Below are positions 25,653 to 64,000 of a stretch of DNA of 64,000 nt, piece after piece. Positions within the stretch are counted from its first letter, which is position 1; every line of letters begins with the position of its first letter. Location: the NCBI GenBank assembly GCA_964349945.1, contig CAYGIH010000001.1:3934-67933 (forward strand). Direction: 5' to 3'. The stretch is from an uncultured Candidatus Saccharibacteria bacterium. GTDB taxonomy: Bacteria > Patescibacteriota > Minisyncoccia > Phycocordibacterales > Zambryskibacteraceae. The position numbers and the translations under genes were made by a program. Under the pieces are notes generated by a model, which saw only the letters and a list, made by a program, of their open reading frames with translations, was not told the origin of the DNA and made no database searches.

Positions 25653-25674
25653 AGTTTGATGCTACCATATTCTT

Positions 25675-30024: not shown

Positions 30025-30078
30025 TAAGGGAATGCAGAGTTTGGTTTGGGGAGGGGATTTCTGGTAACATATACGAAT

Positions 30079-32441: not shown

Positions 32442-32513
32442 ATGGCAGCAAAAAAGAAAGCAAAGAAAGCAAAGAAGGCAGCTCCAAAGCGAAAGGCAAA
32501 GAAACGAGCATAG
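32442..32513 (+). CDS. Tiny lysine-rich ORF in the secA leader (MAAKKKAKKAKKAAPKRKAKKRA)
   Basis: 23-codon ORF rich in AAA/AAG Lys codons, followed by a terminator-like hairpin. It lies about 100 nt upstream of secA. Confidence 0.3.
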   Translation: MAAKKKAKKAKKAAPKRKAKKRA

Positions 32514-32531
32514 TCGACTTCTGTTTTCATG

Positions 32532-32560
32532 AAAAAGCGTTCCCTAGGGGGCGCTTTTTC
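32532..32560 (+). terminator. Terminator/attenuator-like hairpin between the micro-ORF and secA
   Basis: AAAAAGCGTTCC-ctag-GGGGCGCTTTTT: a GC stem with two G.U wobble pairs in RNA, flanked by an A-run and a T-run. Confidence 0.4.
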
Positions 32561-39334: not shown

Positions 39335-39574
39335 CTAGTCCTCTAGGTGTTTAATCATTAGTTTCTTAATACGCTTTTCAGCGTTACTTTTGGTGGTACC
39401 TATCTCAATATCCTCAATTATCTTCTGGAGTGCGGTTAGTTTATAAACCCTATAGTTATTCATTGGGTGTCTGTGGGCAGGAAACTTACCTGAAGCGTCC
39501 CAATTCCTAAGAGTGAGAGGAGTGACACCTAATATCTCCGCCGCTTCTTTTATAGAAAAATATACTTCGCTCAT
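39335..39574 (-). CDS. Small HTH_17 (excisionase/MerR-like) DNA-binding protein
   Basis: 79-aa ORF. 'SIKEAAEILGVTPLTLRNWDASGKFPAHR...YRVYKLTAL' has the HTH_17/Xis-type pattern. It is homologous to the N-terminal repeats of both giant genes. Confidence 0.6.
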   Translation of the reverse strand: MSEVYFSIKEAAEILGVTPLTLRNWDASGKFPAHRHPMNNYRVYKLTALQKIIEDIEIGTTKSNAEKRIKKLMIKHLED

Positions 39575-39582
39575 ATAATTAG

Positions 39583-39603
39583 TTTAATAAACATTAATAA
39601 TCT
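39583..39603. promoter_or_regulatory. Dyad-symmetric motif GTTTAATAA-ACA-TTAATAATC in the divergent promoter region between the HTH gene and giant gene 1
   Basis: Imperfect copy of the perfect palindrome found at 49795-49815. It sits 9 nt upstream of the minus-strand HTH gene's start. Confidence 0.4.
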
Positions 39604-39857
39604 TGTATATTAATTTTATATTGATTGTATACAACTAGCAATAGATATGTATGTTTGAATGTTGATAACAGCAATTAATAATATTACTGAGTAAATGATC
39701 ATAAATAGAAATTCTGTGTGAAAAATTTACTATCTTCAGCACTAGGGTCGGTATAGGTCAGTATAATTCAAAGCGAGATGAGAGTGCTCCTGAGTACATA
39801 AATCAAACATTAAAAAAAATTTTTTATGCTGTAAAAAATTTTAGAATCTGCATAAAA

Positions 39858-39869
39858 GTTGTCCACAAA
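39858..39869 (+). promoter_or_regulatory. Conserved 12-mer GTTGTCCACAAA, 64 nt upstream of the giant gene 1 ATG (39922)
   Basis: The identical 12-mer recurs at 50019-50030, exactly 64 nt upstream of the giant gene 2 start (GTG 50083). Confidence 0.45.
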
Positions 39870-39897
39870 ACAAGAGATTTCTTGTTAGGAGAATAAG

Positions 39898-42800
39898 TTG
39901 CCGAGATTTACAATTAACCTTATGAATAAAGACTATTTTGCCGAGGAGGCAAAATACATCTCGGCAAAAGTTGCTTCAAAAAAAACTGGTTATGCGCAAG
40001 ATCATATCGGCGCTCTTGTGCGTTCTGGAAAGGTGATAGGAAAGAAAATCGGTCGAGCTTGGTTTGTTGATTTGGAGTCACTAGAGAATCATAAAAATTC
40101 GCAAAGTTTCAAAAGTGATAAAAAAGTTTCTCCTATCAAAAAATCTTTGGAGAGGGCGCTCGTCAGCGCGAGCTTCGCTTCAACTAAAGTTGGCTATGCT
40201 CAAGACCATATCGGAGCACTTATTCGTACAGGCAAGGTTAAAGGCAAAAAAATTGGTAGAGCTTGGTTTGTGGATTTGGAGTCACTTGAGAACCACAAGA
40301 CAAACATAAAGCTAAAAACAGTTTTAAAGCCAACAGCGAAAATTTTACCAATTGCTTCGATTGCACCAATTGAACCAAGACTTTCTTTACCCCATCCAAT
40401 TAGTCAAAAGGTAATTAAGTATGAAGAAGAAGTCGCTCCAAAATTTGTAGAGGTTTCTAAGGACAAATATAAGATAAAGAAAGAACTACTTCTCAGGGAA
40501 CTTCTAGGGGGAGCTCTCATCACCTCAATGCTCATTATGGTGGTCACCCTTGCTTCTGTCTCTGGTATAAAACAAATAGCTAAAACAGATACATTTAATA
40601 AATTGGCCGATGGTTCAATCAGTGCAGAAATATCTCAAGGTTTAAACAATACTAGCGCTTCTATCCTAGCTACTATCTCGGATGGATTACAGAATCTTTG
40701 GAATAATCTCTTTGGTAAGAAAGAAAATACTGTTTTGGTAGTGGTGCCACCAGATTCTCTTTCTAATAAAGAACCAACATTAAAACCCTCTACATCAGAA
40801 GGTTCAGGTAAGACTACTATAATCAATAATCCTCCGGCTCAAACAATCATCAATGAATACAAATCCATCACTCAAGTCACTCCGCTAGATCTAACCTTGG
40901 ATGATGTGGTAAACAATGGTGATACAACAAGACTGGATGTACGTTTACTCGGTAATGTAGAAATAGGAAAAAACCTTAATATTAAGGGCAGTATCGTTTC
41001 TGGCAGTTCAGTTATAGCCAAAAATGGCTCTTTTTCTTCGCTTAGCACTAGTGGAGATTTCTCTGCAGGAGGAGAGATAACCCTAGGGAATCCAGAAGAT
41101 AACTTCATCATTAATTCTAAGAATGTTTCTATAGATAAGGACGGCAACACTACCTTCCTAGGTAATTTCTTCTCGGCCAATGCTTCTACCACTAACGTTT
41201 ATGCAGTTAACTCTACCTCTACCAATTCATATATTTCTCTACTTACAGGAGATATTGCCACTATCACTAATTTCACTGGTACAAACAACACTCTTACTAA
41301 TCTCATCTATACCAATGCCACAGGTACTAACTCCACCACTACAAATCTTTTTGCCAACTCTGGAGTAATCACAAATCTCAATACTAATAATCTCAGTCTT
41401 GGTACAACCTCTACTTCAGCCAACATAAACATTGTTCAAACTTCTAATGGTTCGACCACTATCCAAGCGAATAGAATTACTGATGCTGCTCCTGCTGGAG
41501 ATTTCATCCGCTACAACAATGCGGCGAACGACACCACATTATTTAGAGTAGATAATTCTGGAAATTTGTATGCAGGAGGAATCATCAACTCTGGTTCACA
41601 AACAATCACCTCTACCTCTCAACCTCAGTTTAGAGTGCAGTATGATGCCTCAAACGAAAACACTAATTCTATCTCTGCTACAGGAGTCTCCACCTTTGGC
41701 TTTAATGGTTCAACTCCTCGAGCAATCTTTACCCCACAACTCAACGCCACCAACTCTTTCACCTTCACTGATCTCTCTTCTACTCCCATCTTCAACATAG
41801 ATACCCTAAACCAAATTGTCTCTGCTCCACATTTCCTCTCTACAAGTTCCACTACTCTCCAAAACTTCACCTTCATAAATGCTACAGGTACAAGTGCAAC
41901 GACGACGAATCTTTACACCACTTTACTCGTAGCAGGTAGTGCCACAACAACCAATCTTTTCTCTACAAATGGGGCTTTCACCAATTTATTATCTTCTTAT
42001 GCCACAACAACCAATCTTTATTCTTCAGGTCAAACTATATTGGCAGGAACAAGTGGAAATGTGGGCATAGGAACAACAAATCCAACAAACGCACTTAGTT
42101 TTGGAAATTCACAAAATCAGAAAATTTGGGTTGAGAATTCAACTAATGTTATTGCAGGTAGAGCACTTACTCTTTCGGCGGGAAGTACCGTAAACACAGG
42201 ACTCGTTGATTTTGCTCCTCTGAGTCAGGCAAATCTCAACTGGTGGAGTATGGCAGCTGCTCCTAGTGGCAATGTGTATGCTGCTGCTTATAATAACAAT
42301 CTTTACAAACAAACAAACGGAACGGGAAATTTTGTTGCCCAAGGTTTAAATGGAGGTTTGTGGGGTGTAGCGGTCGCCCCCAATGGAAATGTGTATGTAG
42401 CAAAGCACAATGATGATATCTACATGCAAACAAATGAGACTGGAAGTTTCGTAGCCCTTGGACAAACGCCAAGCTCTTGGGGAGCAATGGCCGCCGCCCC
42501 TAGCGGCAATGTGTATGCTCTAAAAGTGTATTCTGGAGCAGGACTTTACAAACAAACAAACGGAACTGGAGATTTTAATCTTGTTGTATCGGGTTCTTGG
42601 AATGCCGTAGCCGTCGCGCCAAATGGGAACGTCTATCTTGTTGGTAGTAGTGACATCTACATGCAGACAAATGAGACTGGAAGCTTCGTAGCCCTTGGGC
42701 AAGGAGCTAAAAGTTGGCAGTCTGTTACCGTTGCTCCAAACGGAGATGTGTATGCCGTTGTTTATGGTGGAGATGTCTACAGGCAAACAGGAGGAACTGG

Positions 42801-45800
42801 AAACTTCGTGGCACTTGGACAGATAAGTAGAAACTGGCAATCAATGGCTGCCGCTCCAAACGGAAATATCTATGCCGGTGTTGGTGGAGGAGATATTTAC
42901 ATGAATGTGGCACAAGGAGGAACAGCTGATTTGGCTGGAGGAAATTTGATTTTGTCTGCTGGGGTGGGTAAGGGAACTGGTGCAAGCAACATCTCATTCT
43001 TGACCGGCACAACGTTGACCTCGGGGACAACACTACAAGCATTGTCTGAAAAGATGACAATTTTAGGTAATGGAAATGTCGGCATAGGCACCACATCACC
43101 AACATACAAACTCTCCGTCGAAGGTTCATCAACTCTTGGTAATCAAGCTATCGCAGGATATTTTACTGCAACATCAACTACAGCCACTTCGACTTTTGCG
43201 GGAGCGGTGGGGATTGGGACGACGAATCCAACACGAGCATTCGAAATTGTTGGCAATGTTGAAAATAATAATACTGGAACAGCTTCACAATTATCAATAC
43301 GTGGAACTGCAAGTACAATAGATAAGTTAAATATTGGATATAACACTACAAGTAATTTTGGTTTTATTGAAGCAGTAAGAGAATCTTCCGTAACTCAGAA
43401 TCTTATTCTCGGACCTGTTGGAGGTAACGTTGGAATTGGAATTACGAATCCCAATTCTAAGCTCGCAGTGAATGGGACTATAGCAATTGCTGCTACAGTA
43501 AGCACAAGCATTCCTCAAACATTAATTTGGTCAAGACAAAGTGATAATTGGACACCAGCATCCATTGGTCAATTATATGATGGTTCAACATATGGAGGGT
43601 ATTTGGTTTTTAATACACACACTTCAAATCTGACTATTGGTGATCAGGCTACTCCACTAGAAAGAATGAGAATTGATAGTTCTGGTAATGTGGGTATAGG
43701 CACCACTTCTCCAGCATACAAACTCTCCGTCGAAGGTTCATCAACTCTCGGCAATCAAGCCATCGCAGGATACTTCACTGCGACTTCTACAACAGCCACT
43801 TCGACGTTTGCAGGAGGAATAACTGGCCCAAATAATTTTATTGTCCAACAAGTAAGCGGGAATGTTGGAATAGGGGTGAACCCAACATCAAATAAACTAG
43901 AAGTAACTGGCGTGACAAAAATAAATGGCACACTTACTGTGGATGGTCAGGGAACATACACGATCATTGGTCAATCAACAGGCTCCAGTCCTGCATGGTT
44001 TCAAACAAAAAATGGGAGTGGTGCATTCAATGAATTCGGTATAGTTGGTTCAAATGGGCAATTTGCAGTTACAACTATTACAGACGACGCGGTATTCAAA
44101 TTTACCGGTAGTAATTTCGTTATTGTTGGAGACAATCAATTAGAAAAATATAGATTTACTTCTTTGGGTAAATTTGGAATTGGAAGTACTTCTCCAACTT
44201 ATCAACTTTCCGTCGAAGGTTCGTCCACTCTTGGTAATCAAGCTATTGCGGGATACTTCACTGCGACTTCGACTACAGCCACATCAACATTTGCGGGAGG
44301 AATTTCTGGACCAAATAATTTTGTGGTTCAACAAGGAAGTGGGAATGTTGGGATTGGTGTGACTAATCCACAAGGAAAACTGGATGTATCTGAAATTCCT
44401 GATTTAGGAAGTGTTTACTTTCGTTCAACTGGTAGACCTTTTATAGATATTAAAGGAGGAGCAAATAGTTATAAAACACTTAGATTTTCTGACGGCGCTG
44501 ATGGTACTTATAAATGGGATGTAAATGTTTTACCTGCAGACGATGGAACATTACCTAATGGTTTTAGAATTAGCAATTCGGGTGGAACTGCTCTCTCTAT
44601 TAATTCAACAAATTATTATGTTGGTTTGGGAGGTATTAATTCTCCTGCTGGTGTACTTGATGTTAATGTTGGAGGTGGTCAAAGTGTATATTTTCGTTCA
44701 GCAGGACGACCATTTGTAGATATTAAAGGAGGAGCTAGTGATTATAAAACACTCCGATTTTCTGAAGGAGCAGATAGTACATATTTGTGGGATGTGAATG
44801 TTGAACCAACAAACAATAATATGGAATTTTGGGGAGGTGGAGGTTTTAGAGTAGCCTTCACTTCTGGGGGTAGTGTTGGTATTGGGACAGCGAATCCAGG
44901 ATATATGCTTGATGTTTCTGGAAGCAATGCAACTAGCCCGATGATTGTGGCTAGAAATGCGGTGAATTCTGGTGATACAAATTGGGGTTCACTAGGTATT
45001 CTAAATGATGCTGCGTATGCAGTGGGGAATAATGCACGTCTTATGTTTTTAGCTCATGATTCTTCTCAAGTCATTCATCCTTACGCAAGTCTTGGTTTAG
45101 AAGTTGAGGGTAATTATATGGGAGCAATAACTTTCAATACTCGAACTGTGGGTGGAGCTACTGGTGAACGAATGAGGATTACAAATGCTGGCAATGTAGG
45201 AATCGGATCAACCACTCCTGCATACAAACTCTCCGTCGAAGGCTCTTCCACACTTGGTAACCAAGCTATCGCAGGATACTTTACTGCCACTTCAACCACA
45301 GCTACTTCAACTTTTTCAGGAGCGGTTGGGATAGGAACGACGAGTCCAAATGCAAAACTTGCGATAACTGGGACAAGTGTTTCTGCGAACAATAAAACAT
45401 TTGTTGTTACCGACAGTTCGAATAATAAACTGTTTACTATACTTGATGACGGGAAAGTTGCCGTTGGCGCAAGAGACCCCTTTTACAACAAGTTCACTAT
45501 TAATCTAGGGGTCAATCAAAATATTGGTTTTGATAATGATGGAGGGGTATCACGTATCCAATTTAGAAATGATGTTAATTCTGGTCATGTGCCTGGAGTT
45601 TTTTCCGCTTCGAGTTTTAGTTTTTTAAGTGGAAATGTCGGAATTAACTTACCATCATTTTCATCTATTCCAAGTAGCCAACTTGATGTCAATGGAAATA
45701 TCGTGAGACAGGTTGATGCCACTGGAGTAGAGACTCGCATAGGCATACATTCAAATGATGGGCCAATCACGGCAACTTTTGGGGGTACATTGATTGGCAC

Positions 45801-49788: not shown

Positions 49789-49794
49789 GAGTAA

Positions 49795-49815
49795 GTTTAT
49801 TAAACATTAATAAAC
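49795..49815. promoter_or_regulatory. Perfect palindrome GTTTATTAA-ACA-TTAATAAAC, 7 nt after the giant gene 1 stop and upstream of giant gene 2
   Basis: 9-bp perfect inverted arms around an ACA centre. A degenerate copy lies at 39583-39603, upstream of the small HTH gene. Confidence 0.45.
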
Positions 49816-49829
49816 TAGGATAGAGAAAC

Positions 49830-49947
49830 TAGCTTTTAGCTGTTAAATTATAGCTGCTAGTAGATTCAGCTATTAGCTAAGAGCTTTCAGCTTCTAGCTT
49901 ATGATTCAAATAAGTTCTTAATACCAATAGCTCACAGCTAGTAGCTA
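49830..49947. repeat. AGCT-rich degenerate heptamer tract ([CT]AGCTNN, 7-bp phasing) in the intergenic region between the giant genes
   Basis: About a dozen AGCT tetramers between 49831 and 49987. Runs with exact 7-bp spacing: 49868/75/82/89/96, 49831/38 and 49928/35/42. Confidence 0.5.
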
Positions 49948-50018
49948 GTCAAGAAAGATGACAGTTCGTAGCCAGCACTTAAAAGCTGCACTAAAAATTT
50001 ATATAAATTTTAGTGCTA

Positions 50019-50030
50019 GTTGTCCACAAA
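50019..50030 (+). promoter_or_regulatory. Second copy of the conserved GTTGTCCACAAA box, 64 nt upstream of the giant gene 2 start
   Basis: Same 12-mer and same spacing as at 39858. Confidence 0.45.
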
Positions 50031-50082
50031 GTGATATATATTCTGCTAGGATAATTGTAATTGGAATTCTATAATATATGTT

Positions 50083-59000: not shown

Positions 59001-62000
59001 TGGTTGGTATCTCTATTCTACTGCAAATGCATTTCGTGGAGCATTTTATGACAACGGAACTTATACAGGTATCTTTGGTGATGGATCAGGAAGTAGTCCA
59101 GCTATTGCAATAGAAAATAGTAATGTGGGTATTGGGACAACTGGGCCAGGTAGCAAATTATCTATTGTGGATGGTGCGGGTGGTACAGGAAAGGGTTTTG
59201 AACTCTATTATGGTTCTGGTGCCAATAGACCTCTCACAATGGGTATCAACCGAAGTAATGGTGATGGTTGGCTTGGTTGGAATGCATATCAATCCACGGG
59301 TGATACTCAAACATACGCTGTTTCAAATTTCGCCGCACAAATTCTGTCGGCGGATGGATTAAGATTCAAGGTTGCTCCGAACGGTACTGGTGGCAATGTC
59401 ATAACTTGGACGGACGCCATGACCATTCTTTCTGGTGGTAATGTAGGTATCGGGACGACGAATCCAAGTGGTGTGTTGCAAGTAGGACCACTAGGAGGAA
59501 CTCCAGCTGGTTGGGTATATTTGAATAATAATGTTGGTCCAACTAGTGCGAATCCTTCTGCCTTTGCAGGTTTAGCTTTAGGTTGGAATGCGACGAACGG
59601 GAATGGGGAATCCATTATTGCTTTTGGGACAGGTTCTGGTTCGGCAGGAGGAGGTGCTGCCAGAAGATTATCATTTGTTGAGTGGGATGGAACCACAAGA
59701 AATGAAAGGTTAACAATTGATGAAGGTGGCAATATTGGAGTAGGTACTACCTCTCCTTATACACGATTTGCAGTCGTTGATTCTACTTCTGTGAGAGAGA
59801 TGATTTTTAACGACACCATTAATTCTGCTGCTAACTATTTGACTCTAAAGGGTCCATCAGGGGTAAATGGTCAAGTTGGTTTGAATCTCCGTATTGACAG
59901 TACAAATCTTTGGCAAATTTATGCAGATAACAATCAATCTGGTGCATCACAAAATGGTTTGGCTATCCAAAGTGGTGGTGGGGTAAAAATGTTTATACAA
60001 GGCGGGGGTAATGTAGGAATTGGGACGACTACACCGATTGAACAACTTACAGTTTATGGAGCAACAAATCCAAGAATCGGTATTAATGCTCCTGCAGGCA
60101 CTTCTGTTGGGTTGAACTTGTATGAAGCCCAGGTGACTAAATGGACTGTAGGGAAAGATAGCAACAATAAGTTCCTAATCGCTCGTCCAGGTCAGTCAGA
60201 TTTTTATATTGATACTTCTGGAAACGTCGGCATCGGGACGACGACTCCTGCGACTATGTTGGAAATAAGTGGAACCGCAAATATTGGCCCACAATTAACC
60301 TTACGTTCTACTAGTGCTAATGGTACATATGCGGGTCTCAAAATTAATACTGACGTCACTACGAATAACAGTTCTCGAACCTGGTTTATTGGATCCAACA
60401 CATATGAATATGGCGATTTTGCTCTGATTCAAAGCAATACGAAAATGGGCGATCCGGTTATTGCTGGAACTGATAGATTTCACATTAGTGCCGGTGGCAA
60501 CGTCGGGATTGGAATAACAAATCCTGCATATAAATTAGAAGTTAAGGAAACAGGTGGTGCTGCGATAAACTTAATTAATCAATTAGAGTTGGAAACAGTT
60601 GGAACCAATACTTGGGCAGGTGTTAGGTTTACTGATGGTGTTACTGCTAATGCTTTCATAGGTTATATTACCGGAACAGGGGCATCAGATAGACTGCTGG
60701 GTTTTGCTAATAATTCCGCAACATCACAAATGGTTATAAATGGAAACGGCAACGTCGGTATCGGGACTACGAATCCAGCAAATGCAAAACTTGATGTGAA
60801 TGGGAACATTAGTTTGGGAACTAATGCTGGTGGTGGTACTTTATATTTTGGAAACGATGCTGCTGGTGGTGTTCAAAATAGAATTCAATATGCAGCGAGT
60901 GAATTTGGTTTGTACACAAATCAAAGTCTTGGTTTTAATTTTTACAATAGTGGAACTAATGCTGTTGCCATTAATGCGAATGGCAAGGTTGGTATCGGGA
61001 CGACGAGCCCACTTACAAATTTGCATGTTTATGGAACTTCATACCCATGGTTTATGCTTGATGGTAATGGAACAACAAAGGGGTTTTTGGCTATGAGAGT
61101 TAATACTGCCACAAATAATGATGTCAATGTTTTTTATGGCAATGATAATAGTTCAAAATTGATTTTTAACAGACAAGGGTATGCGAATCGAGGCACAGCT
61201 GTCGGTGAGACGGCGGTTATGACATTAGATAGCACTGGCAACGTCGGTATCGGGACGACGAACCCGAGCCAGTTGCTCACGTTAGCAAGCACTGGGTACT
61301 TTGGATGGGATAATGGAGCGGGCACTGTCGACGCAAGTTTATATCGTGCTGCAAGTGGCATTATTAGGACGGGTAGTCGTCTTGATGTGACGAACGCAAG
61401 TGGTATCCTCACGAACAGTATCGCACAATATACCGCAAGCAATCTCGTTATTGGTAACGCTGCCTATAACATATCAATGAACGGCAATGTCGGGATTGGA
61501 ACCACGAGCCCTGGGGTTAAATTTGATGTTCTTAATAGTGCTGGGGGTACAGTCAGTAGATTTTATAATTCTGGCACAAATGGTGTAGCAGGATATGCGG
61601 CCACTCCAGTACTCGCAGTTTCCTCAAAAAGTAATGGAACTTTCACAGCTGGGCATGCAATATTTAGTGTGGGTCGAGATAATACATCATCAGACTATTT
61701 CAACATAACTGACACATTGTTTACAGTTCTTGGTGCTGGAAATGTGGGAATTGGGACAACGAATCCAGGTACCAAATTGGAAATAGTTGCATCTGGAGGT
61801 ACTACTGCATTAATTAGAAATACCGATTCCACAAGCTATGGGGGCTTGAGAGTTTACAATGATCAAAACAGTAATTTGCGATCATTAGAAATTGATTATT
61901 CGGGTAGTACTTATGCTGGTTCATTAGTTACTGGAGGACCTACTGGAGAATCTGCGTCAATCGCCACTACTGGTGCATATCCACTAGTTCTAGGAACTAA

Positions 62001-64000
62001 CAATACAGCCAGGATGACAATATTGTCTGGTGGAAATGTAGGAATTGGAACAACAGCACCAGGAAATATTTTGGAAATCAAAAGTGGGGTTCCAAGGCTG
62101 TTAATTAATGGAACAACCAATCCAGGTTATAGAGGAATTGAATTTCAAAATACAGGTACATCATTTGCATCAACAACAGCAGATGCATCTTCTGGAGAAT
62201 ATAGAGATAGTATCGGACCTATTACTCCGTGGGGAGGTTTTAGAACATTTTATACTGATACTGTAGAAAGAATGAGGATTACATCAACAGGCAACGTAGG
62301 TATTGGGACGACTAATCCTTCTACAGCTCTCTATGTAGTCGGAGAAATTACAGCTAGCACTGTATTAAATGCTGGGTCGTATGTATATACTGGTGATCTT
62401 TATCATCGAGGAAATTTCCGAGTTCTCAACAAAGCCGCCAACGATTTTGTGACATGGGCAACACGGGACACATCTGGATCAGAAAGTGTTATGAATTTAT
62501 CAAGCATTGGGACTATTACAACGAGTGGGGCTGTTACTATAAATGCGAGTGGTGCAGGAGCTTTTGTTATGAATGGTTCTGGAGGAACAGATTCATATAT
62601 TAGATTTGCGGATGCGCAAATTGGAGGACAGACTGCAGGACTCGCCTATCTTCAATGGCAACGAGATAATAATCAAGGAAGAAGGTTTTCAGTAAATGTA
62701 TCAAGTAATGGGGGTGTGACAAATCAAGCGATGACAATTATGGAGACAGGCAACGTCGGAATAGGCACTACCACACCTGCAGAAAAATTAAACTTGTATG
62801 GAGGAAATATTAGATTGAGTAATTCTTTAGGTGGAACAGGAGAGATAGGTAGAATTGTTGGTTGGAACAATATCGGGACACAATTGGAGGCAGCTTCAAT
62901 TGCATTCTTGAGAGATAGTATAGGAGATGGTGATTATGGTGCGATTGCATTTAATACACTAGCTGGCTCGGAAAGAATGAGGATTGCTTCTACTGGCAAT
63001 GTGGGTATTGGGACAACAAGTCCTGTTACAAAATTAGAAGTAGCATCAGCTACTGATGGAGATGGATTAAGACTGCATTATACAGGTGGTACTGCTGGGG
63101 GTGTTGGTTCTCGATTGACATTCAATTCAAATACTAATAGTGGACCCTCTCAAATATTTGCAGCTATCAAGTCATATATGCAAAGTGGTAATGATGTGAA
63201 TTATGGTGGAGATTTGAATTTCTATACAGCTGATTCAGGAAATGCTGGAGCATTAACTCAAAGAATGACAATTTTAACTGGGGGTAATGTTGGTATTGGG
63301 ACGACTGCACCAGGTGCGAAGTTAGATATTTATGAAGGGGGAAGTGTTGATAACCTGCATTTATATAAAACATCTGGGGGTGCACATGTACTTTCAATGG
63401 GTACAAATTTTGGAGGAGGAAACACTTTTGCAATAGATCCTTTTATAAATGGAGTTGATAATGGAGGATTTAGTATTTATGATGTAACTAATTCTGTTAA
63501 TAGATTGGTAATAGCACCAACTACTGGCAACATTGGAGTTGGAACAGTAAGCCCTGGTGCGAAGTTAAGTGTTTCTGGTGGAGTTGGAATTGGTAGTGGG
63601 TACGCAACAACCGCAGTTTCTGATGGAAATTTGATTGTATCTGGTAATGTTGGCGTAGGTACAACAAACGCAACTAATCGTGGGTTAAATGTTGTGGCTC
63701 CAAGTGATGTGGGAATTGAGGTTTCTGTTCCACGCACGACAGGAACTAATTATGCAATATTGGCTAGTGCCACCGGAGCGGGGGCTGGTTTGAATCAAGG
63801 TTTGAACGTGGGGGCAAGTGGTGCGACTAGCAATTATTCTATACGAATTGCTAGTCCAGTGGCTTCTGCGGGTAATTATGCAATATACAGCGATGCGACC
63901 GCTCAAGCTTATTTTGAAGGTAGTGTTGGGATAGGGGTTGCAAGTCCAGGACAAAAACTTGATGTGAATGGAATTTCTAGATTTAGAGATTATTTAAATT
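50083..64000 (+). CDS. Giant paralog 2 (more than 4630 aa inside the window; runs off the 3' edge). It has the same architecture: two HTH_17-like domains, a TM anchor, and a GNVGIGTT-repeat ectodomain.
   Basis: The frame is open from the in-frame TAG at 50047-49 to the window end. The first start is a GTG at 50083 (VNKELFSENGEFISSRLASKKIGYSHDHISALIRSGKVSGKKVGRVWLVDFHSLENYKK...). The second HTH repeat is 'ASKKIGYSQDHIGALVRGGKVAGQKIGRVWYVDFRSL'. The TM helix is identical to gene 1. The frame was spot-checked at 53041 (..PTYALSVEGSSTLGNQAIAGYFTATSTTATSTFAGAVGIGTT..). No long + strand ORF in any other frame is listed in this span. Confidence 0.8.
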   Translation, partial: MNKELFSENGEFISSRLASKKIGYSHDHISALIRSGKVSGKKVGRVWLVDFHSLENYKKSIDLKNFEPGKISGQMRSYTFKTKNHLGKNFLSVEKASKKIGYSQDHIGALVRGGKVAGQKIGRVWYVDFRSLRRHKKSQRIIFRQNVQKPTTNVPPIEPRLSLPHPISQKVIKYEEEVAPKFVEVSKDKYKIKKELLLRELLGGALITSMLIMVVTLASVSGIKQIAKTDTFNKLADGSISAEISQGLNNTSASILATISDGLQNLWNNLFGKKENTVLVVVPPDSLSNKEPTLKPSTSEGSGKTTIINNPPAQTIINEYKSITQVTPLDLTLDDVVNNGDTTRLDVRLLGNVEIGKNLNIKGSIVSGSSVIAKNGSFSSLSTSGDFSAGGEITLGNPEDNFIINSKNVSIDEDGNANFVGGLTATFLDLTGPTTMGDLEFNNATGTSATTTNLATTNFTTSNLNTNNLSLGTTSTSANINITQTANGSTTIQANRFTDAAPSGDFIRYNNAANDTTLFRVDNSGNLYAGGIINSGSQTITSTSQPQFRIQYDASNENTTSVTLNGVTTYGFNGTTPRAIFTPQSNRTDTFTFTDASSNPIFNIDTTNQRVGIGTTSPFAKLSISNAVTDTVNTPLLNISSTTGGTSTTTLFTVLASGNVGIGTTSPTNKLSVSGNADISGTLTVSGNAAFGGGTVQGNAVVYASKTITSVLSQAGLSGVLTLNPSGNTSASYLGGQGALLVSSGNVRNLTGTILGLLGEVQHSGTGILSNPIGVIGNVINKSSGNMTNAQGVRSSIDNNGTGIITNAYGTYAIIDNTNTGTTTNAFDLFAANGAVSAGRIDNYYGLYLENITAGALTNYSIYSAGGNNYFGGNVGIGTTNPGYKLDVVGNVDGAVNAYGMRNLSDGGSAYSIFQMWNNTANTAGFFFNSSNRGGDGGPNGFSFFNDAGPVRFRGNGNVIFATGAYPGVDKMILSSGGNFGIATSSPTYALSVEGSSTLGNQAIAGYFTATSTTATSTFAGAVGIGTTTPSSKFAITGLGTGIGRAFVVADSTNSEKLSVLDNGSIVSNGQITFPNSNGLHSGYGIGNSGENRLQFNGGPNGYVFNSYSNGSNILSIDNTGNIGVLGSNISLGTGSGSYSQVILSTSGRNWDFGVDTGSAPVGGFSIRDRDNSYAKVFTLEAGAPNGSFYVKNSGNVGIGTTSPTHKLSVEGSSTLGNQAIAGYFTATSTTATSTFAGDVRIANNKKLGFQPVQGYDHAKWNMSVDTNNDFTFNGEAGKNLTFAGFGSLAAWPENVSHLISGTGDFQMDGYTGGQLRYLGGDANWYSGAASDYSLDGSFGMRFSIGASGNSNRGWTFYDNTSSTIEAAISSIGNGYFRGSLGIGTTTPAYKLSVEGSSTLGNQAIAGYFTATSTTATSTFAGAVGIGTTTPTSKMSIVGNGSSGIFGPYMSNVLNVSGANLGTTAGDNSLIASFGADVGSGWQNALGIRSYRYSNGNGYTTAGIMLGLDYNTAPIMSYIGLNQNGNIGIGTMDPQKKLTIEVGGGIDYQLRLGKSNAYYDIGRNDVDGLLYFTGNQSFPYVGYVFNTGNLGIGTTSPYQKLAVVGNVLADAFIATSTTATSTFSGFIDVNGTGTNATSTFASNLWVKGGLKVGTGSLYLNDAGITSSDGNLSIQRNTSSYLLGGNVGIGTTTPNKKFVIRSNSDASFLRLETDGTHGVKPIISFDSGLSGINRMDKAQIQGGYDSVQSGSGGILNFLTKDTSEVLQSRMYLDAMGNVGIGTTGPGALLDLYKSDAITGAGLRIVSQDTAVGSPPFSTIEFKTSRTDSTSLLQAGRIVSGWDGAGYDTARTTLQYPTGADAWTDGLTLKYGNVGIGTTNPGAKLDIGTTVDGSKTLGINGADTAWDAISFNAASAAKSYSIARRGSAEYFGILNNGNWRLVIADTTGNVGIGTTTPGSLLHAYAGSGNPEFRLETAGAGNNPYITLKGGSNYWGIQGTFSDSNKNLQFLYNGSAVNVAIDNTGKVGIGNVNPGKTLDVTGTGRFSGVLTISNTSNCTGSQALQTNANGDIACGTINTGGISSAGGWTTNNVGFVSLSTTTDIAVVGASSTPYAKFAIISGATATTTLAIVPSGSQTANIIDIYNTSGALSSVFTAGGNLGIGTVGPTEKLHVAGNIIANSGNAIGWGDRTAQIVGVTGGSGRIAFEVAGAEKMRIDGATGNVGIGTTTPLMPLSIAANSGASAVQLIGRVADNISTLNFSTNSGAVSTYIQGNGSWLRSQADGGIHFRNGGTPSVASTDYTIEGMNLGINSTSPGEKLSVEGSAIANENIVRFNNQGNYASRIWLRNTNRSAYFSVSGTTADTIATDILPSGLAIGLGGSPSPVQFFNGASASVKMTIATDGNVGIGTTTPQQKLEVVSGNIGLYNTGALKFSQTYATPYMDIAMPDTDTLSFRTNVGSADVNGTAMVIKRTTGNVGIGTTTPSNLLVVNTTTAGAVGRIHVLGGQPSSVGDTTSALVLGMNEGAVANNGVELRAVRSAFSSPNATDFSIAVAGSERVRVDKSGNVGIGSSTPMDLLSIGNSNNGSTDRRAINLGAGGYGVPGNANSSSNGDKLILFRTPTGASGDITLGVGDIGDMWFKGTVFRWYTHNGGTGASSEKMRLTQAGNVGIGTTNPAEKLQVGDTGSNAIYIQSSGQTDTSALKFRNTYGSSATRNIRMSGDLAVHITDAGDVEKMTILNSGNVGIGITNPGYALDVQRAATSDWTTRIYNTGVGNGLLVRTSSVDMNMALGVYNGTSYVMSVLNNGNVGIGTTTPINSLGFGTGSTGIGFYSSNTTLNSGKIAEIVQSEVGSGNGHLLFKTYQGGSGGAERMRIQNDGNVGIGTTTPMSALHLVSPNTATSLTIGNGQFGKTLGLIQTSADTSGFLRIQSVQSNGSTYGNIVLNDAGGNVGIGTTNPGRALDVVGTAQVRTDEGGWYLYSTANAFRGAFYDNGTYTGIFGDGSGSSPAIAIENSNVGIGTTGPGSKLSIVDGAGGTGKGFELYYGSGANRPLTMGINRSNGDGWLGWNAYQSTGDTQTYAVSNFAAQILSADGLRFKVAPNGTGGNVITWTDAMTILSGGNVGIGTTNPSGVLQVGPLGGTPAGWVYLNNNVGPTSANPSAFAGLALGWNATNGNGESIIAFGTGSGSAGGGAARRLSFVEWDGTTRNERLTIDEGGNIGVGTTSPYTRFAVVDSTSVREMIFNDTINSAANYLTLKGPSGVNGQVGLNLRIDSTNLWQIYADNNQSGASQNGLAIQSGGGVKMFIQGGGNVGIGTTTPIEQLTVYGATNPRIGINAPAGTSVGLNLYEAQVTKWTVGKDSNNKFLIARPGQSDFYIDTSGNVGIGTTTPATMLEISGTANIGPQLTLRSTSANGTYAGLKINTDVTTNNSSRTWFIGSNTYEYGDFALIQSNTKMGDPVIAGTDRFHISAGGNVGIGITNPAYKLEVKETGGAAINLINQLELETVGTNTWAGVRFTDGVTANAFIGYITGTGASDRLLGFANNSATSQMVINGNGNVGIGTTNPANAKLDVNGNISLGTNAGGGTLYFGNDAAGGVQNRIQYAASEFGLYTNQSLGFNFYNSGTNAVAINANGKVGIGTTSPLTNLHVYGTSYPWFMLDGNGTTKGFLAMRVNTATNNDVNVFYGNDNSSKLIFNRQGYANRGTAVGETAVMTLDSTGNVGIGTTNPSQLLTLASTGYFGWDNGAGTVDASLYRAASGIIRTGSRLDVTNASGILTNSIAQYTASNLVIGNAAYNISMNGNVGIGTTSPGVKFDVLNSAGGTVSRFYNSGTNGVAGYAATPVLAVSSKSNGTFTAGHAIFSVGRDNTSSDYFNITDTLFTVLGAGNVGIGTTNPGTKLEIVASGGTTALIRNTDSTSYGGLRVYNDQNSNLRSLEIDYSGSTYAGSLVTGGPTGESASIATTGAYPLVLGTNNTARMTILSGGNVGIGTTAPGNILEIKSGVPRLLINGTTNPGYRGIEFQNTGTSFASTTADASSGEYRDSIGPITPWGGFRTFYTDTVERMRITSTGNVGIGTTNPSTALYVVGEITASTVLNAGSYVYTGDLYHRGNFRVLNKAANDFVTWATRDTSGSESVMNLSSIGTITTSGAVTINASGAGAFVMNGSGGTDSYIRFADAQIGGQTAGLAYLQWQRDNNQGRRFSVNVSSNGGVTNQAMTIMETGNVGIGTTTPAEKLNLYGGNIRLSNSLGGTGEIGRIVGWNNIGTQLEAASIAFLRDSIGDGDYGAIAFNTLAGSERMRIASTGNVGIGTTSPVTKLEVASATDGDGLRLHYTGGTAGGVGSRLTFNSNTNSGPSQIFAAIKSYMQSGNDVNYGGDLNFYTADSGNAGALTQRMTILTGGNVGIGTTAPGAKLDIYEGGSVDNLHLYKTSGGAHVLSMGTNFGGGNTFAIDPFINGVDNGGFSIYDVTNSVNRLVIAPTTGNIGVGTVSPGAKLSVSGGVGIGSGYATTAVSDGNLIVSGNVGVGTTNATNRGLNVVAPSDVGIEVSVPRTTGTNYAILASATGAGAGLNQGLNVGASGATSNYSIRIASPVASAGNYAIYSDATAQAYFEGSVGIGVASPGQKLDVNGISRFRDYLN
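50546..51318 (+). repeat. Copy 2 of the 773-bp perfect repeat (in giant gene 2)
   Basis: See 40364-41136. The identical antisense 63-aa ORFs 40635..40826 and 50817..51008 in the ORF track confirm it. Confidence 0.8.
53044..53171 (+). repeat. 110-bp module copy E (gene 2)
   Basis: acatatgctctctccgtcgaaggttcatcaactcttggtaatcaagctattgctggttacttcactgcaacttctacaacagctacgtctacgtttgc. Confidence 0.65.
53695..53800 (+). repeat. 110-bp module copy F (gene 2)
   Basis: cacacacaaactctccgttgaaggttcatcaactcttggtaatcaagccatcgctggatattttactgcgacttcgactacagctacttcgactttcgc. Confidence 0.65.
54247..54374 (+). repeat. 110-bp module copy G (gene 2)
   Basis: gcatacaaactttctgtcgaaggttcatcaactctcggcaatcaagctattgcaggatatttcactgcaacttcaactacggctacttcaacatttgc. 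Confidence 0.65.

What the first reader, a model, noticed from the sequence alone, without database searches (positions are those of the whole stretch)
39335..64000. Candidate new locus: a small HTH gene plus two tandem giant membrane-tethered proteins with cytoplasmic HTH_17-like domains and phage-tail-fibre-like ectodomains
Seen in sequence:
- A 79-aa Xis/MerR-like HTH gene on the minus strand faces two co-oriented giant genes (39898-49788, 50083 to beyond 64000).
- Both giant N-termini (about 190 aa) carry two copies of a ~45-aa module (..ASKK.GYAQDHIGAL.R.GKV.GKKIGRAWFVDLESL..). This module aligns with the HTH_17 helix-turn-helix of the small upstream protein (G.....L.....SGK[FV]).
- A single hydrophobic helix follows a KK-rich stretch, so the HTH-like modules should be cytoplasmic and everything else extracellular.
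- The ectodomains are thousands of residues of GNVGIGTT.P..KL repeats. Gene 1 also has a 7-blade repeat block and a C-terminal S74 autoproteolytic chaperone domain. These are features of phage tail fibres/spikes.

Established knowledge: HTH_17 domains are DNA-binding, and S74 domains fold trimeric beta-helical fibres and then excise themselves.

Inference: these may be giant trimeric adhesin/fibre proteins whose N-terminus is a membrane-tethered transcription factor (ToxR/CadC-like logic), for example a contact sensor for host attachment in an episymbiont, or a domesticated phage receptor-binding protein. The conserved motifs around the genes (palindromes at 39583 and 49795; GTTGTCCACAAA at -64 of both genes) would be candidate operators for the small HTH protein and/or the tethered HTH domains. 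I am not aware of a described family with this HTH-TM-tail-fibre architecture.
Basis: partly seen in the sequence, partly recalled or inferred. Interest (0 to 1): 0.88.

Follow-up and report, generated by a model that had tools for sequence, protein, structure and literature searches.

The report
Giant surface fibres with DNA-binding tails
Two neighbouring giant genes of a tiny uncultured (Patescibacteria) bacterium encode phage-tail-fibre-like surface filaments whose short inner end, inside the cell, is a pair of DNA-binding domains; this design proves widespread but undescribed in the group and could link what the cell touches to its DNA.

Summary
Gene 1 runs 39922-49788 (3288 aa). Gene 2 starts at 50083 and is 5201 aa in a public copy. 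Each begins with two excisionase/MerR-type winged-helix modules (Pfam HTH_17; AF2 pLDDT 94-97; nearest folds Xis, BldC, RacA, TraN). A disordered linker and one membrane helix follow. The ectodomain is acidic, with about 24 or 44 GNVGIGTT modules that match phage tail-fibre profiles, and ends in a Peptidase_S74 chaperone domain with its Ser-x4-Lys dyad.

This is not an isolated locus. The N-terminal module belongs to a Patescibacteria-wide family (about 7000 clusters), mostly about 320-aa proteins encoded just downstream of gatB. In 58 of the 80 related loci kept, a large HTH-TM surface-protein gene lies downstream of it. Fusions of the double module to a giant fibre are rare.

Two cis-elements are conserved. 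A TKTCCACA box, identical to a DnaA box, sits 41 nt upstream of the -10 of apparently leaderless promoters of these genes. AAACMTTRMTAA occurs only beside the small MerR gene.

DNA binding, regulatory function and trimer formation are inferred, not shown. A ToxR-like self-regulating membrane-bound regulator is my favoured reading. Rivals are a RacA-like chromosome tether under DnaA control and a protein-binding module. The family carries no functional annotation, and my text searches found no description.

The parts
39335..39574 (-). Small soluble MerR/HTH_17 protein, 79 aa, transcribed divergently from gene 1
   Evidence: Pfam MerR 42 bits (cut-off 28.2), MerR_1 and HTH_17. A 54-96% identical orthologue sits at position -1 on the opposite strand in 11 related loci. 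NCBI names it 'MerR family DNA-binding transcriptional regulator'.
39589..39600 (.). AAACATTAATAA element, 15-26 nt upstream of the small gene's ATG; candidate operator or core promoter of the MerR gene
   Evidence: The pattern AAACMTTRMTAA is found in exactly the 11 loci that carry the small gene, in none of the other 71, and twice in the window (sequences).
39859..39867 (+). TTGTCCACA box (DnaA-box-like) upstream of gene 1; its 8-nt core ends 41 nt before the -10
   Evidence: Exact 12-mer shared with 50019-50030. T[AG]TCCACA lies on the sense strand upstream of HTH-type genes at 68 of 119 intergenic sites in 80 loci. Spacing to a -10-like hexamer peaks at 39-43 nt.
39886..39914 (+). Inferred core promoter of gene 1: TAGGAG (-35 position), 17-nt spacer, TACAAT (-10), then 7 nt to the ATG (apparently leaderless)
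   Evidence: Read. The same layout occurs at gene 2, in L003 (TATAAT) and in L004-type loci. Inference only; no transcript data.
39922..49788 (+). Gene 1: 3288-aa HTH-HTH-TM-fibre-S74 protein
   Evidence: ORF and translation. Identical to NCBI protein P0160. Orthologous N-termini in independent assemblies: L003, P0006, P0161.
39952..40302 (+). Gene 1 cytoplasmic tandem winged-helix modules (about aa 11-59 and 79-127)
40486..40572 (+). Gene 1 membrane helix (about aa 189-217), preceded by KDKYKIKKE
   Evidence: Kyte-Doolittle mean 2.14 over 19 residues. AF2 models a long helix at pLDDT ~90.
40361..41139 (+). 780-bp block 99.7% identical to 50543-51322 in gene 2 (linker, TM helix, proximal ectodomain)
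   Evidence: blastn. The HTH-coding parts are only 76.5% identical, so this suggests recent gene conversion.
42229..42966 (+). Six ~40-aa beta-propeller-like repeats (W..A.AAPxGNVY)
   Evidence: Five copies found by pattern and one more read in the translation. Weak NHL (23 bits, cut-off 20), SBBP and Reg_prop hits.
42055..48816 (+). Fibre shaft: 24 modules marked by GNVGIGTTxPxxKL, spaced about 43-340 aa apart (mostly 58-118)
   Evidence: Motif positions. PHROG tail-fibre families 9942 and 18345, E 3e-21 and 2e-17. The same motif precedes the S74 domain of MYRF.
48946..49110 (+). Peptidase_S74 intramolecular chaperone domain of gene 1, with an S-x4-K dyad in SSMRFKDNV
   Evidence: Pfam 30.4-33.5 bits, cut-off 22. 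Motif located. PDB sequence hit to the MYRF ICA domain 7dc3.
49794..49816 (.). Perfect palindrome AGTTTATTAA-ACA-TTAATAAACT just after the gene 1 stop; contains the second AAACATTAATAA copy (49802-49813)
   Evidence: As an RNA hairpin it is weak (-6.2 kcal/mol, z -1.5), so a DNA site is more likely than a terminator.
50020..50028 (+). TTGTCCACA box upstream of gene 2; its 8-nt core ends 41 nt before the -10
50047..50075 (+). Inferred core promoter of gene 2: TAGGAT, 17-nt spacer, TATAAT, then 7 nt to the GTG
   Evidence: Read.
50083..64000 (+). Gene 2 (5' 13.9 kb; full product 5201 aa): HTH-HTH-TM-fibre, with S74 beyond the window
   Evidence: No stop to the window end. Identical to P0005 over 4639 aa. 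HTH_17 34.3 bits. TM at aa 196-224. 44 GNVGIGTT-type motifs. The P0005 C-terminus scores 57 bits on S74 and contains SDLRLKHNI.

Best explanation
**What is shown.** These are two tandem paralogous genes of a Minisyncoccia (Patescibacteria) chromosome. The products are single-pass, N-in envelope proteins. Outside the cell lies a very long, acidic, Gly/Thr/Ser/Asn-rich shaft built from ~85-aa phage-tail-fibre-like modules. Gene 1 also carries a six-repeat propeller-like block. Each protein ends in a Peptidase_S74 intramolecular chaperone domain.

**Inferred from the S74 family.** The domain should drive trimerisation of the shaft and then cut itself off at the conserved Ser-x4-Lys site.

**Inside the cell.** On flexible linkers sit two excisionase/MerR-type winged-helix modules per chain, which would make six per trimer.

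**Mechanism I commit to (inferred).** The modules bind DNA at the inner face of the membrane. They recognise the direct-orientation TKTCCACA boxes that lie at a fixed ~41 nt upstream of the -10 of the leaderless, weak-(-35) promoters of this gene family. The proteins would then act as ToxR-like membrane-bound regulators that auto- and cross-regulate a small envelope regulon. The state of the fibre or envelope (assembly, load, host contact) would be able to change their activity.

**The small MerR protein.** It is a separate soluble regulator with its own site, AAACMTTRMTAA, at its own promoter in the divergent intergenic region.
For: **Architecture and topology.**

**Fold.** pLDDT is 94-97 on both modules. 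The best structural neighbours are almost all DNA-binding wHTH proteins (Xis, BldC, TipAN, GlnR, RacA, TraN).

**Family.** 6961 clusters at E<=1e-3 share HTH-HTH-linker-TM. 178 loci in species-representative genomes encode a relative; every named record title among the 80 kept is a Patescibacteria lineage (a few say only 'uncultured bacterium'). 77 of the 79 complete ORFs at those loci have a single hydrophobic helix.

**Recurrence of the fusion.** The HTH-TM-large-ectodomain design recurs independently:
- L032, >=2120 aa with GNVGIGTT repeats.
- The single-HTH large genes downstream in 58 of 80 loci.
- L053, which has S74.

**Cis-element.**
- 68 of 119 intergenic TKTCCACA sites in 791 kb lie sense-oriented upstream of HTH-type genes.
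- Box-to-(-10) spacing peaks at 39-43 nt (46 of 72).
- Upstream of the large HTH genes there are 112 sense against 39 antisense T[AG]TCC boxes, where about 25 are expected per strand. Box spacings of 11 and 34 nt recur. Phased direct repeats are how Xis/BldC-type proteins bind (established knowledge).
- The window has exactly the same box, spacing and promoter for both giants.

**Small MerR gene.** It and its motif co-occur perfectly, 11 of 11 loci against 0 of 71.
Against: - No experiment or DNA-protein model was run, so DNA binding and its specificity are inference.
- TTATCCACA is the canonical DnaA box, so DnaA is an obvious competing binder.
- The same box also precedes a Lys-rich mini-ORF in at least 29 loci and in the window. 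It is therefore not private to HTH genes.
- The ~320-aa relatives have only ~40 extracellular residues, which is poor for a sensor.
- Gene 1's HTH_17 score is below Pfam's cut-off.
- Topology rests on hydropathy and charge only.
- Trimer formation was not modelled.
Confidence: 0.42

Rival explanations
1. Chromosome-envelope tether under DnaA control. The tandem winged helices anchor nucleoid DNA to the membrane at the base of the fibres, as RacA anchors the chromosome to the cell pole. They are not transcription factors. The TKTCCACA boxes are genuine DnaA boxes, so the family and the Lys-rich mini-protein form a DnaA-regulated (cell-cycle-coupled) set.
For: - The box consensus over 72 sites is tTATCCACA, the 9-mer DnaA-box consensus.
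- It also precedes a non-HTH gene, a Lys-rich peptide that could be nucleoid-associated.
- The ~320-aa relatives have almost no ectodomain, which suits an anchor better than a sensor.
- The cytoplasmic part is very basic, pI ~10.
Against: - The invariant part of the weaker boxes in the arrays is TATCC, with a variable 3' half. From memory, this is not the usual DnaA-box tolerance pattern.
- 68 of 119 intergenic sites are in front of HTH genes. That is what autoregulation predicts.
- The window shows no GC-skew switch, so the sites are not oriC.
- No dnaA locus or oriC was available for comparison.
Confidence: 0.27
2. Protein-interaction module. The HTH-like modules do not bind DNA. They serve as cytoplasmic docking or oligomerisation domains, as RodZ's HTH binds MreB and CbpM/DafA bind chaperones. 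They might pair the ~320-aa protein with the large surface protein, or recruit export or assembly factors to very long type-II membrane proteins.
For: - The HTH2-TM gene and the HTH1-TM-large gene are adjacent in most loci, and secA is close by in 55 of 80 loci.
- The fusion in the window replaces the separate pair, which is what interacting partners sometimes do.
Against: - The most conserved residues map to the HTH turn, the recognition helix and the wing (GY.QDYIGQLAR, R.GG.WY).
- The strong positive charge suits nucleic-acid binding.
- The top structural neighbours are DNA binders.
- A dedicated cis-element accompanies the genes.
- secA/gatB synteny may be simple housekeeping gene order.
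Confidence: 0.15
3. Prophage remnant or recently domesticated phage receptor-binding protein. The whole unit, HTH included, is of phage origin.
For: PHROG tail-fibre and excisionase profile hits. S74 domains are typical of phage fibres and spikes.
Against: - The flanks are SecA, thioredoxin, DsbB, MYG1, Obg and GatB, with no phage genes seen.
- The gatB-linked position is conserved across a whole bacterial class.
- No relative of the N-terminal module was found in 2.9 million IMG/VR contigs.
- There is no tRNA or integrase nearby.
- A TM anchor has no role in a virion fibre.
- Ancient acquisition of the fibre modules from phages remains possible.
Confidence: 0.04
4. Assembly or gene-calling artefact. 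Repeat-rich sequence was mis-assembled into artificially long ORFs, or the HTH part was joined to the fibre part through the 780-bp repeat.
For: The two genes share a 780-bp block that is 99.7% identical. An exact 29-aa cassette recurs four and three times. These are conditions that can mislead assemblers.
Against: - Gene 2 is identical to P0005 and gene 1 to P0160 in the public record. These come from the same 381.5-kb NCBI contig as the window, so they confirm the gene calls but are not independent assemblies.
- Orthologues from other Minisyncoccia assemblies (P0006 694 aa, P0161 873 aa, L003) run from the HTH through the shared block into gene-1-specific sequence.
- L032 shows the same design in a distant lineage.
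- Neither ORF is interrupted by a stop: 3288 codons in gene 1 and the 4639 visible codons of gene 2.
Confidence: 0.03

Closest known systems
ToxR / CadC / TcpP-type membrane-bound one-component transcription regulators
   Same: N-terminal cytoplasmic DNA-binding domain, one membrane helix and a C-terminal extracytoplasmic part. They bind promoter DNA while membrane-anchored. This is the working logic I favour here.
   Different: Their DNA-binding domain is an OmpR-type winged helix (Trans_reg_C), which gave no hit here. Here there are two excisionase/MerR-type modules. Their outer domains are ~100-250 aa sensors, not 3000-5000-aa fibres with an S74 domain.
MYRF (myelin regulatory factor) family
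   Same: To my knowledge it is the only described family combining a DNA-binding domain, a membrane helix and a Peptidase_S74 (ICA) domain that trimerises and self-cleaves. Its ICA is the only PDB sequence hit for gene 1's C-terminus, including the GRVGINTDRP / GNVGIGTTNP motif.
   Different: MYRF's order is DBD-ICA-TM, with the ICA on the cytoplasmic side, so self-cleavage frees the DNA-binding trimer (from memory). Here the order is HTH-TM-fibre-S74. S74 is extracellular and distal, and its cleavage cannot release the HTH. The DBD type also differs (Ndt80-like versus HTH_17). It is eukaryotic.
Phage tail fibres and spikes with a C-terminal S74 intramolecular chaperone (endosialidase K1F/NF, T5 L-shaped fibre)
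   Same: Repeated fibre modules that hit PHROG tail-fibre families, and a C-terminal S74 domain with a Ser-x4-Lys dyad.
   Different: Phage fibres have no membrane anchor and no HTH domain, and are far shorter. These genes sit in a conserved chromosomal housekeeping context.
Excisionase/BldC/TraN group of small MerR-like winged helices
   Different: Those proteins are small and soluble. TraN's two halves pack as an internal dimer, whereas the two modules here show no confident packing (pTM 0.36).
RacA (Bacillus subtilis chromosome-anchoring protein)
   Different: RacA is soluble and reaches the membrane through DivIVA. It has no TM helix and no ectodomain.
RodZ
   Same: Cytoplasmic N-terminal HTH, one TM helix and an outer C-terminal domain. 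It is a reminder that a membrane-anchored HTH need not be a transcription factor.
   Different: RodZ has an Xre-type HTH that binds MreB (from memory) and only a small periplasmic domain.

Membership tests
HTH_17 / excisionase-type winged helix (PF12728, TIGR01764) | Profile score at or above the curated cut-off | tested here: met
   Gene 2 N-terminus scores 34.3 bits against a cut-off of 27. Gene 1 scores 24.3 bits (E 3.7e-5, two stretches), below the cut-off, but it is 69% identical to gene 2 over the first 725 aa. Five of six ~320-aa relatives tested also pass. TIGR01764 is below its cut-off for all.
HTH_17 / excisionase-type winged helix (PF12728, TIGR01764) | Beta-alpha-alpha-beta-beta-alpha winged-helix fold | tested here: met
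HTH_17 / excisionase-type winged helix (PF12728, TIGR01764) | Binds double-stranded DNA | not testable with these tools
   Only indirect evidence: pI ~10, a conserved recognition helix and wing, and an associated cis-element.
Peptidase_S74 intramolecular chaperone (PF13884) | Profile score at or above the curated cut-off, at the C-terminal end of a fibre | tested here: met
   Gene 1 scores 30.4-33.5 bits and full-length gene 2 (P0005) 57.2 bits, against a cut-off of 22. About 225 aa (gene 1) or 230 aa (gene 2) follow the domain, which I recall is longer than in typical phage examples.
Peptidase_S74 intramolecular chaperone (PF13884) | Catalytic Ser-x4-Lys dyad at the cleavage site | tested here: met
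   Gene 1 has S-SMRF-K in SSMRFKDNV. Gene 2 has S-DLRL-K in SDLRLKHNI. That the dyad is spaced S-x4-K is from memory of endosialidase NF.
Peptidase_S74 intramolecular chaperone (PF13884) | Trimerisation and autoproteolytic release | not tested
   No multimer model was possible and no proteomics are available.
ToxR/CadC-like membrane-bound regulators | OmpR-type winged-helix DNA-binding domain (Trans_reg_C) | tested here: not met
   No Trans_reg_C hit at E<=1. It may work like this family but is not a member.
ToxR/CadC-like membrane-bound regulators | N-in, single-pass topology with the DNA-binding domain in the cytoplasm | tested here: inconclusive
   One strong hydrophobic segment, no N-terminal signal peptide, a basic N-terminal 187-195 aa and an acidic ectodomain. 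No dedicated topology predictor or experiment was available.
MerR family regulators (small 79-aa protein) | N-terminal MerR HTH above the cut-off | tested here: met
   PF00376 42 bits (cut-off 28.2); PF13411 33.5 bits (cut-off 21.6).
MerR family regulators (small 79-aa protein) | C-terminal coiled-coil dimerisation and effector-binding domain | tested here: not met
   Only ~25 residues follow the HTH match (residues 5-54 of 79). In size it is closer to BldC/excisionase-like minimal proteins.
MYRF family | Ndt80-type DBD, then ICA, then TM, in that order | tested here: not met
   The order here is HTH-TM-fibre-S74. There is no NDT80 hit.
DnaA box / oriC | Match to TTATCCACA | tested here: met
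   The window sites are TTGTCCACA (one mismatch) and 32293 is exact. The consensus of 72 related sites is tTATCCACA.
DnaA box / oriC | Cluster of boxes at a GC-skew switch (replication origin) | tested here: not met
   Cumulative GC skew rises across the whole window apart from small dips at 28-30 kb, 40-42 kb and 50-52 kb, with no sustained sign switch. There is one box per promoter in the window. DnaA binding itself cannot be tested here.
Phage tail fibre (virion protein) | Encoded in a phage or prophage structural module | tested here: not met
   Neighbours are SecA, Trx, DsbB, MYG1, Obg and GatB. No IMG/VR relative of the N-terminus was found. Only the repeat modules and S74 resemble phage fibres.

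The most novel reading that the evidence does not exclude
The giant fibres are direct mechanical or contact transducers of an episymbiotic cell. A trimeric host-binding filament passes through the membrane and ends in six DNA-binding winged helices that sit on TKTCCACA (DnaA-box-like) sites. Attachment or load on the fibre would then be coupled, with no second messenger, to transcription of a small envelope/nucleoid regulon. Alternatively, it would be coupled to the positioning of DnaA-box-bearing DNA at the attachment site. The ~320-aa HTH2-TM protein, conserved across Paceibacteria, would be the ancestral core of this system.
Probability: 0.2. Interest if true: 0.9.

Novelty: new variant of a known kind. 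Interest (0 to 1): 0.68.

Why it matters
Patescibacteria (CPR) make up a large share of bacterial diversity. They live attached to other cells and encode few recognisable regulators, and how they sense and hold their hosts is a central open question.

This analysis defines three things:
- A class-wide, unannotated family of membrane-tethered excisionase-type HTH proteins at a fixed chromosomal position.
- Its occasional fusion to 3000-5000-aa phage-fibre-like surface filaments.
- A shared promoter element identical to a DnaA box.

Together these give concrete, testable handles: a ~135-aa domain to purify, a 9-bp site to test, and a defined regulon. They bear on envelope-to-DNA coupling in organisms that are otherwise hard to study.

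The locus is also, to my knowledge, the first bacterial counterpart to the DBD + TM + S74 combination known from eukaryotic MYRF, although the wiring is different.

Tried and rejected
- **Word-indexed homologue search with the N-terminus.** It gave only 3 hits. The exhaustive profile search was needed to see the family.
- **Second homologue search, profile of large-gene N-termini.** It returned 8 short or unnamed hits and was uninformative about lengths or names.
- **The look-up of encoding contigs.** P0005 was not on record, and P0006 and P0020 were on contigs too short for context.
- **IMG/VR scan for the N-terminal module.** No confirmed relative, so a recent phage origin for that module was rejected.
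- **Rfam scan and tRNA scan of the window.** Nothing found. There is no RNA gene or integration-site explanation.
- **Palindromes as terminator hairpins.** The stems are AT-only and weak. The generic promoter/terminator scan was not enriched over shuffles. Rejected as intrinsic terminators.
- **AGGAG at 39887-39891 as a Shine-Dalgarno for the TTG at 39898.** Rejected. The TAGGAK hexamer sits exactly 17 nt upstream of a TAYAAT box, which lies 7 nt before the ATG/GTG in both genes and in relatives. Homologues and NCBI start at MNK.
- **Intergenic region as oriC because of the DnaA-like boxes.** Rejected, since there is no sustained GC-skew switch.
- **Direct homology between the small MerR protein and the modules.** hhalign was not significant.
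- **Full-text literature searches.** The five queries were: Peptidase_S74 + Patescibacteria; giant proteins + CPR; HTH + transmembrane + Patescibacteria; HTH_17 + membrane-anchored; Patescibacteria + tail fiber/adhesin. None turned up a description of this architecture. This is absence of evidence within that library only.
Full report
**1. The observation**

ORF listing and translation confirm the layout.
- A 79-aa gene lies on the minus strand at 39335-39574.
- A 9.9-kb ORF ends at 49788.
- A second ORF runs from GTG 50083 to the window end without a stop.

*Start of gene 1.* It starts at ATG 39922 (MNKDYF...), not at the in-frame TTG 39898.
- Homologues start MNK(D/E).
- The public protein P0160 (3288 aa) starts there.
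- A TACAAT box ends 7 nt upstream.

*Full length of gene 2.* It is identical over all 4639 visible residues to a public 5201-aa protein, P0005. P0005, P0160 and the small protein all come from one 381,535-bp NCBI contig.

*Public annotation.* Orthologues are annotated 'hypothetical protein [Minisyncoccia bacterium]'. The small gene is annotated 'MerR family DNA-binding transcriptional regulator'.

*Genomic context.* Upstream genes are a Wzy_C/TPR protein, SecA, thioredoxin, DsbB, MYG1, Obg and GatB. GC content is 26-43%, and no tRNA or Rfam family is present. This is a chromosomal housekeeping context, not a mobile element.

**2. The cytoplasmic end**

*Profile evidence.*
- Both N-termini hit Pfam HTH_17 with two stretches. 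Gene 2 scores 34.3 bits, above the cut-off of 27. Gene 1 scores 24.3 bits (E 3.7e-5).
- Both hit PHROG excisionase families.

*Fold evidence.*
- With a 36-sequence alignment, AlphaFold2 gives beta-alpha-alpha-beta-beta-alpha twice, at pLDDT 94-97. A disordered linker follows, then a long helix at pLDDT ~90. pTM is 0.36, so the modules have no fixed mutual packing.
- Two protein-binding MerR-like folds, CbpM and DafA, also appear.
- Foldseek ranks TraN first. TraN has two such modules in one chain.

*Topology evidence.*
- Each protein has one strong hydrophobic segment (gene 1 about aa 189-217, gene 2 aa 196-224) after KDKYKIKKE. One further window in gene 1's ectodomain barely exceeds the threshold.
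- The residues before the helix have pI 9.9-10.2 and a net charge of +18 to +23.
- The ectodomains have pI ~5 and are 12-15% Gly, with about 12% Thr and 9-10% each of Ser and Asn.
- With no N-terminal signal peptide, an N-in (type II) topology is the only plausible one. No dedicated predictor was available.

*Relation to the small protein.* It aligns with the modules in HTH register, but not significantly (hhalign E 0.033).

**3. The outer part**

- GNVGIGTT-type motifs recur 24 times in gene 1 and 44 times in gene 2, mostly every 58-118 aa.
- A 500-aa sample of the shaft hits PHROG tail-fibre families at E 3e-21 and 2e-17. The C-terminal 462 aa hit five 'tail fiber' families.
- Gene 1 has Peptidase_S74 at 30-33 bits.
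- The C-terminus of full-length gene 2 scores 57 bits on the same domain.
- Both keep an S-x4-K dyad: SSMRFKDNV in gene 1 and SDLRLKHNI in gene 2.
- The only PDB sequence match is the ICA domain of MYRF. The match includes GRVGINTDRP, which aligns with GNVGIGTTNP. The repeated motif is therefore the stalk element that precedes S74 domains.
- Gene 1 also has six, not seven, ~40-aa propeller-like repeats, with weak NHL, SBBP and Reg_prop hits.

*How the two genes relate.*
- They are 69% identical over the first ~725 aa and ~26% identical in the shaft.
- A 780-bp block (40361-41139 against 50543-51322) is 99.7% identical.
- The HTH-coding DNA is only 76.5% identical.
- This pattern points to recent gene conversion.
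- Orthologues in other assemblies cross this block into gene-1-specific sequence, which argues against a chimeric assembly.

**4. The family behind the N-terminus**

*Size and make-up.*
- An exhaustive profile search found 6961 clusters at E<=1e-3 and 2899 at E<=1e-10.
- Among the best 150 hits, nearly all are 290-360 aa. The exceptions are P0005, two fragments of the window's genes or their orthologues (P0004, P0006), and a few short fragments.
- These ~320-aa proteins have two HTH modules, a conserved helix (HK.EKDALLAAVQ), a ~100-aa variable linker, one TM helix and a ~40-aa outer tail.

*Distribution.* A scan of species-representative genomes confirmed 178 loci. Among the 80 kept, every named record title is a Patescibacteria lineage (Paceibacterota, Kaiserbacteria, Nomurabacteria, Parcubacteria, Minisyncoccia, and MAGs labelled Saccharibacteria); a few titles say only 'uncultured bacterium'.

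*Conserved synteny.*
- GatB lies upstream in 74 of 80 loci (directly upstream in 59), with SecA further upstream in 55 of 80.
- A large gene lies downstream in 58 of 80 loci. Its product starts with one HTH_17-like module (MSDEIFFDG..YISA.DAA...GLTRDYIARLCR.GK..GRR.GKNWYV), usually followed by a TM helix at about aa 120-310.
- The ectodomain reaches 1300-1900+ aa, and many copies are cut by the fetch limit.
- One complete example, L053, ends in S74.

*What this means for the fusion.*
- HTH-TM-large-ectodomain is the rule in this class.
- Fusion of the double module to a giant fibre is rare. It was seen in the window, in its relative L003 (83% identical, same Obg-GatB-MerR-giant order) and in distant L032 (>=2120 aa, with a collagen-like stretch plus GNVGIGTT repeats).

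*The small MerR gene.*
- It sits at position -1 on the opposite strand in 11 loci, at 54-96% identity.
- Its partner there is usually a 334-388-aa HTH2-TM protein, followed by secreted FN3-type proteins.

*Other checks.* The window has no other member of the family. No relative of the module was found in IMG/VR.

**5. Cis-elements**

The two intergenic regions of the window align poorly except for three conserved islands.

*(a) AAACATTAATAA (39589 and 49802).*
- The pattern AAACMTTRMTAA occurs in exactly the 11 loci with the small MerR gene and in none of the other 71.
- It always lies 15-30 nt from that gene's ATG. Three loci have a second, inverted copy ~35 nt away.
- It is the likely operator or core promoter of the MerR gene.
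- The copy after the gene 1 stop is a perfect 10+3+10 palindrome but a weak hairpin.

*(b) GTTGTCCACAAA (39858 and 50019).*
- The core T[AG]TCCACA is found on the sense strand upstream of the family gene in about 30 loci and upstream of the large HTH genes in dozens more.
- Of 119 intergenic sites in 791 kb, 68 precede HTH-type genes and 29 precede a Lys-rich mini-ORF. Several of the remaining 22 show the same two promoter architectures.
- The consensus is tTATCCACA, which is the DnaA-box consensus.
- The distance to a -10-like hexamer peaks sharply at 39-43 nt (46 of 72). A second peak at 30-31 nt comes from one clade.
- Upstream of the large HTH genes, sense-strand T[AG]TCC boxes number 112 against 39 antisense, where about 25 are expected per strand. 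Spacings of 11 nt (nine times) and 34 nt (ten times) recur.

*(c) TAGGAK.*
- It lies exactly 17 nt upstream of TAYAAT, which lies 7 nt before the start codon in both giants.
- I infer leaderless transcripts from promoters with a poor -35.
- The box would then be centred near -58, a typical activator position. No transcript data were available.

**6. Mechanism**

*Shown:* the domain architecture, the fold class, the family, the synteny and the cis-elements.

*Inferred from the S74 family:* the shaft trimerises and the C-terminal chaperone is cut off, which would place six winged helices at the base of each fibre.

*Favoured reading (0.42).*
- The tethered modules bind the TKTCCACA boxes and auto- or cross-regulate the family, as ToxR-like regulators do.
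- The fibre or envelope state modulates that activity.

*Main rival (0.27).*
- The boxes are real DnaA boxes.
- The modules are RacA-like DNA-envelope tethers.
- The perfect DnaA consensus, the Lys-rich mini-ORF in the same set and the near-absent ectodomain of the ~320-aa proteins favour this reading.

*Third reading (0.15).* The module is a protein-docking domain of the RodZ/CbpM type.

*Unlikely.* Phage origin of the unit and assembly artefact.

**7. Comparison and novelty**

- The proteins may work like ToxR/CadC but are not members of that family, because there is no Trans_reg_C domain.
- They share the DBD + TM + S74 parts list with eukaryotic MYRF. The order is different, however, so S74 cleavage cannot free the DNA-binding end.
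- The shaft and S74 domain are phage-fibre-like, but the genes are chromosomal and membrane-anchored.
- Five full-text searches found no description of this architecture, and public records call the proteins hypothetical.
- I rate it a new variant of known kinds (membrane-tethered DNA-binding proteins; S74 fibres).
- The added finding is a class-wide family and a DnaA-box-like promoter element.
- Interest is 0.68: real, widespread and testable, but function remains inferred.

Noticed in passing
window 32292-32560: A 23-aa Lys-rich mini-ORF (MAAKKKAKKAKKAAPKRKAKKRA, 32442-32513) lies upstream of secA. An exact GTTATCCACA box (32292-32301) and a TATGATAAT -10-like box precede it, and a GC-stem terminator-like hairpin follows. 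The same box-N38-TGCAATAAT-MAKKKKAKK..RR unit occurs in at least 29 of 80 Paceibacteria loci. It could be a nucleoid- or ribosome-associated peptide co-regulated with the HTH-TM genes.
   Followed up: partly
window 40361-41139 and 50543-51322: The two giant genes share a 780-bp stretch that is 99.7% identical, covering the linker, TM helix and proximal ectodomain. The flanking HTH-coding DNA is only 76.5% identical. This looks like recent gene conversion, and it is a possible trap for assemblers.
   Followed up: partly
window gene 1 aa ~1063, 1267, 1428, 1769; gene 2 aa ~991, 1208, 1392: An exact 29-aa cassette, LSVEGSSTLGNQAIAGYFTATSTTATSTF, recurs four times in gene 1 and three times in gene 2. 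This suggests ongoing shuffling of cassettes within and between the shafts.
   Followed up: no
loci L010-L082, ~60-130 nt upstream of the large HTH-TM genes: A strongly conserved promoter-like element, CCGAAATAnCTAGTAAAATAcTAGATAAATCG, contains the palindrome CTAGTA-AAA-TACTAG around a TAAAAT -10. A proximal T[AG]TCCGAAA box abuts it and a distal TTATCC(A/C)CA box lies ~34 nt further upstream. The window's giants lack this element.
   Followed up: partly
window 39909-39921 and 50070-50082; 39575-39600: The -10-like boxes end 7 nt before the start codons of both giant genes, and no Shine-Dalgarno lies between. The small MerR gene looks similar. This implies leaderless mRNAs in this organism.
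   Followed up: partly
L032 5986-12348: A distant relative (bin AlinenLipids_bin-4835) has two nearly identical HTH modules from a recent internal duplication, one TM helix, a collagen-like Gly-X-Y stretch (GPAGPKGATGSQGPMGPAG) and ~230-aa near-identical shaft repeats.
   Followed up: no
L004-L008, L017, L023 downstream of the ~370-aa HTH2-TM gene: In the clade with the small MerR gene, the short HTH2-TM protein is followed by a conserved set of secreted or anchored proteins (about 529, 455 and 846 aa). They have signal peptides, C-terminal hydrophobic segments and FN3 / purple-acid-phosphatase-N-like domains. This may be a surface-protein operon.
   Followed up: partly
window 8000-25700: A long co-directional run of ~200-400-aa genes has GC falling to 0.26-0.30 around 18-22 kb. 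It ends with a Polysacc_synt flippase-like gene on the minus strand (24381-25652). A Wzy_C/TPR protein follows at 30046-32250. This looks like a surface-polysaccharide locus lying next to the fibre genes.
   Followed up: no
window 26860-29478: An 872-aa protein has an LCAT / DUF676 serine-esterase-like domain. It may be a lipase or acyltransferase relevant to a lipid-scavenging lifestyle.
   Followed up: no
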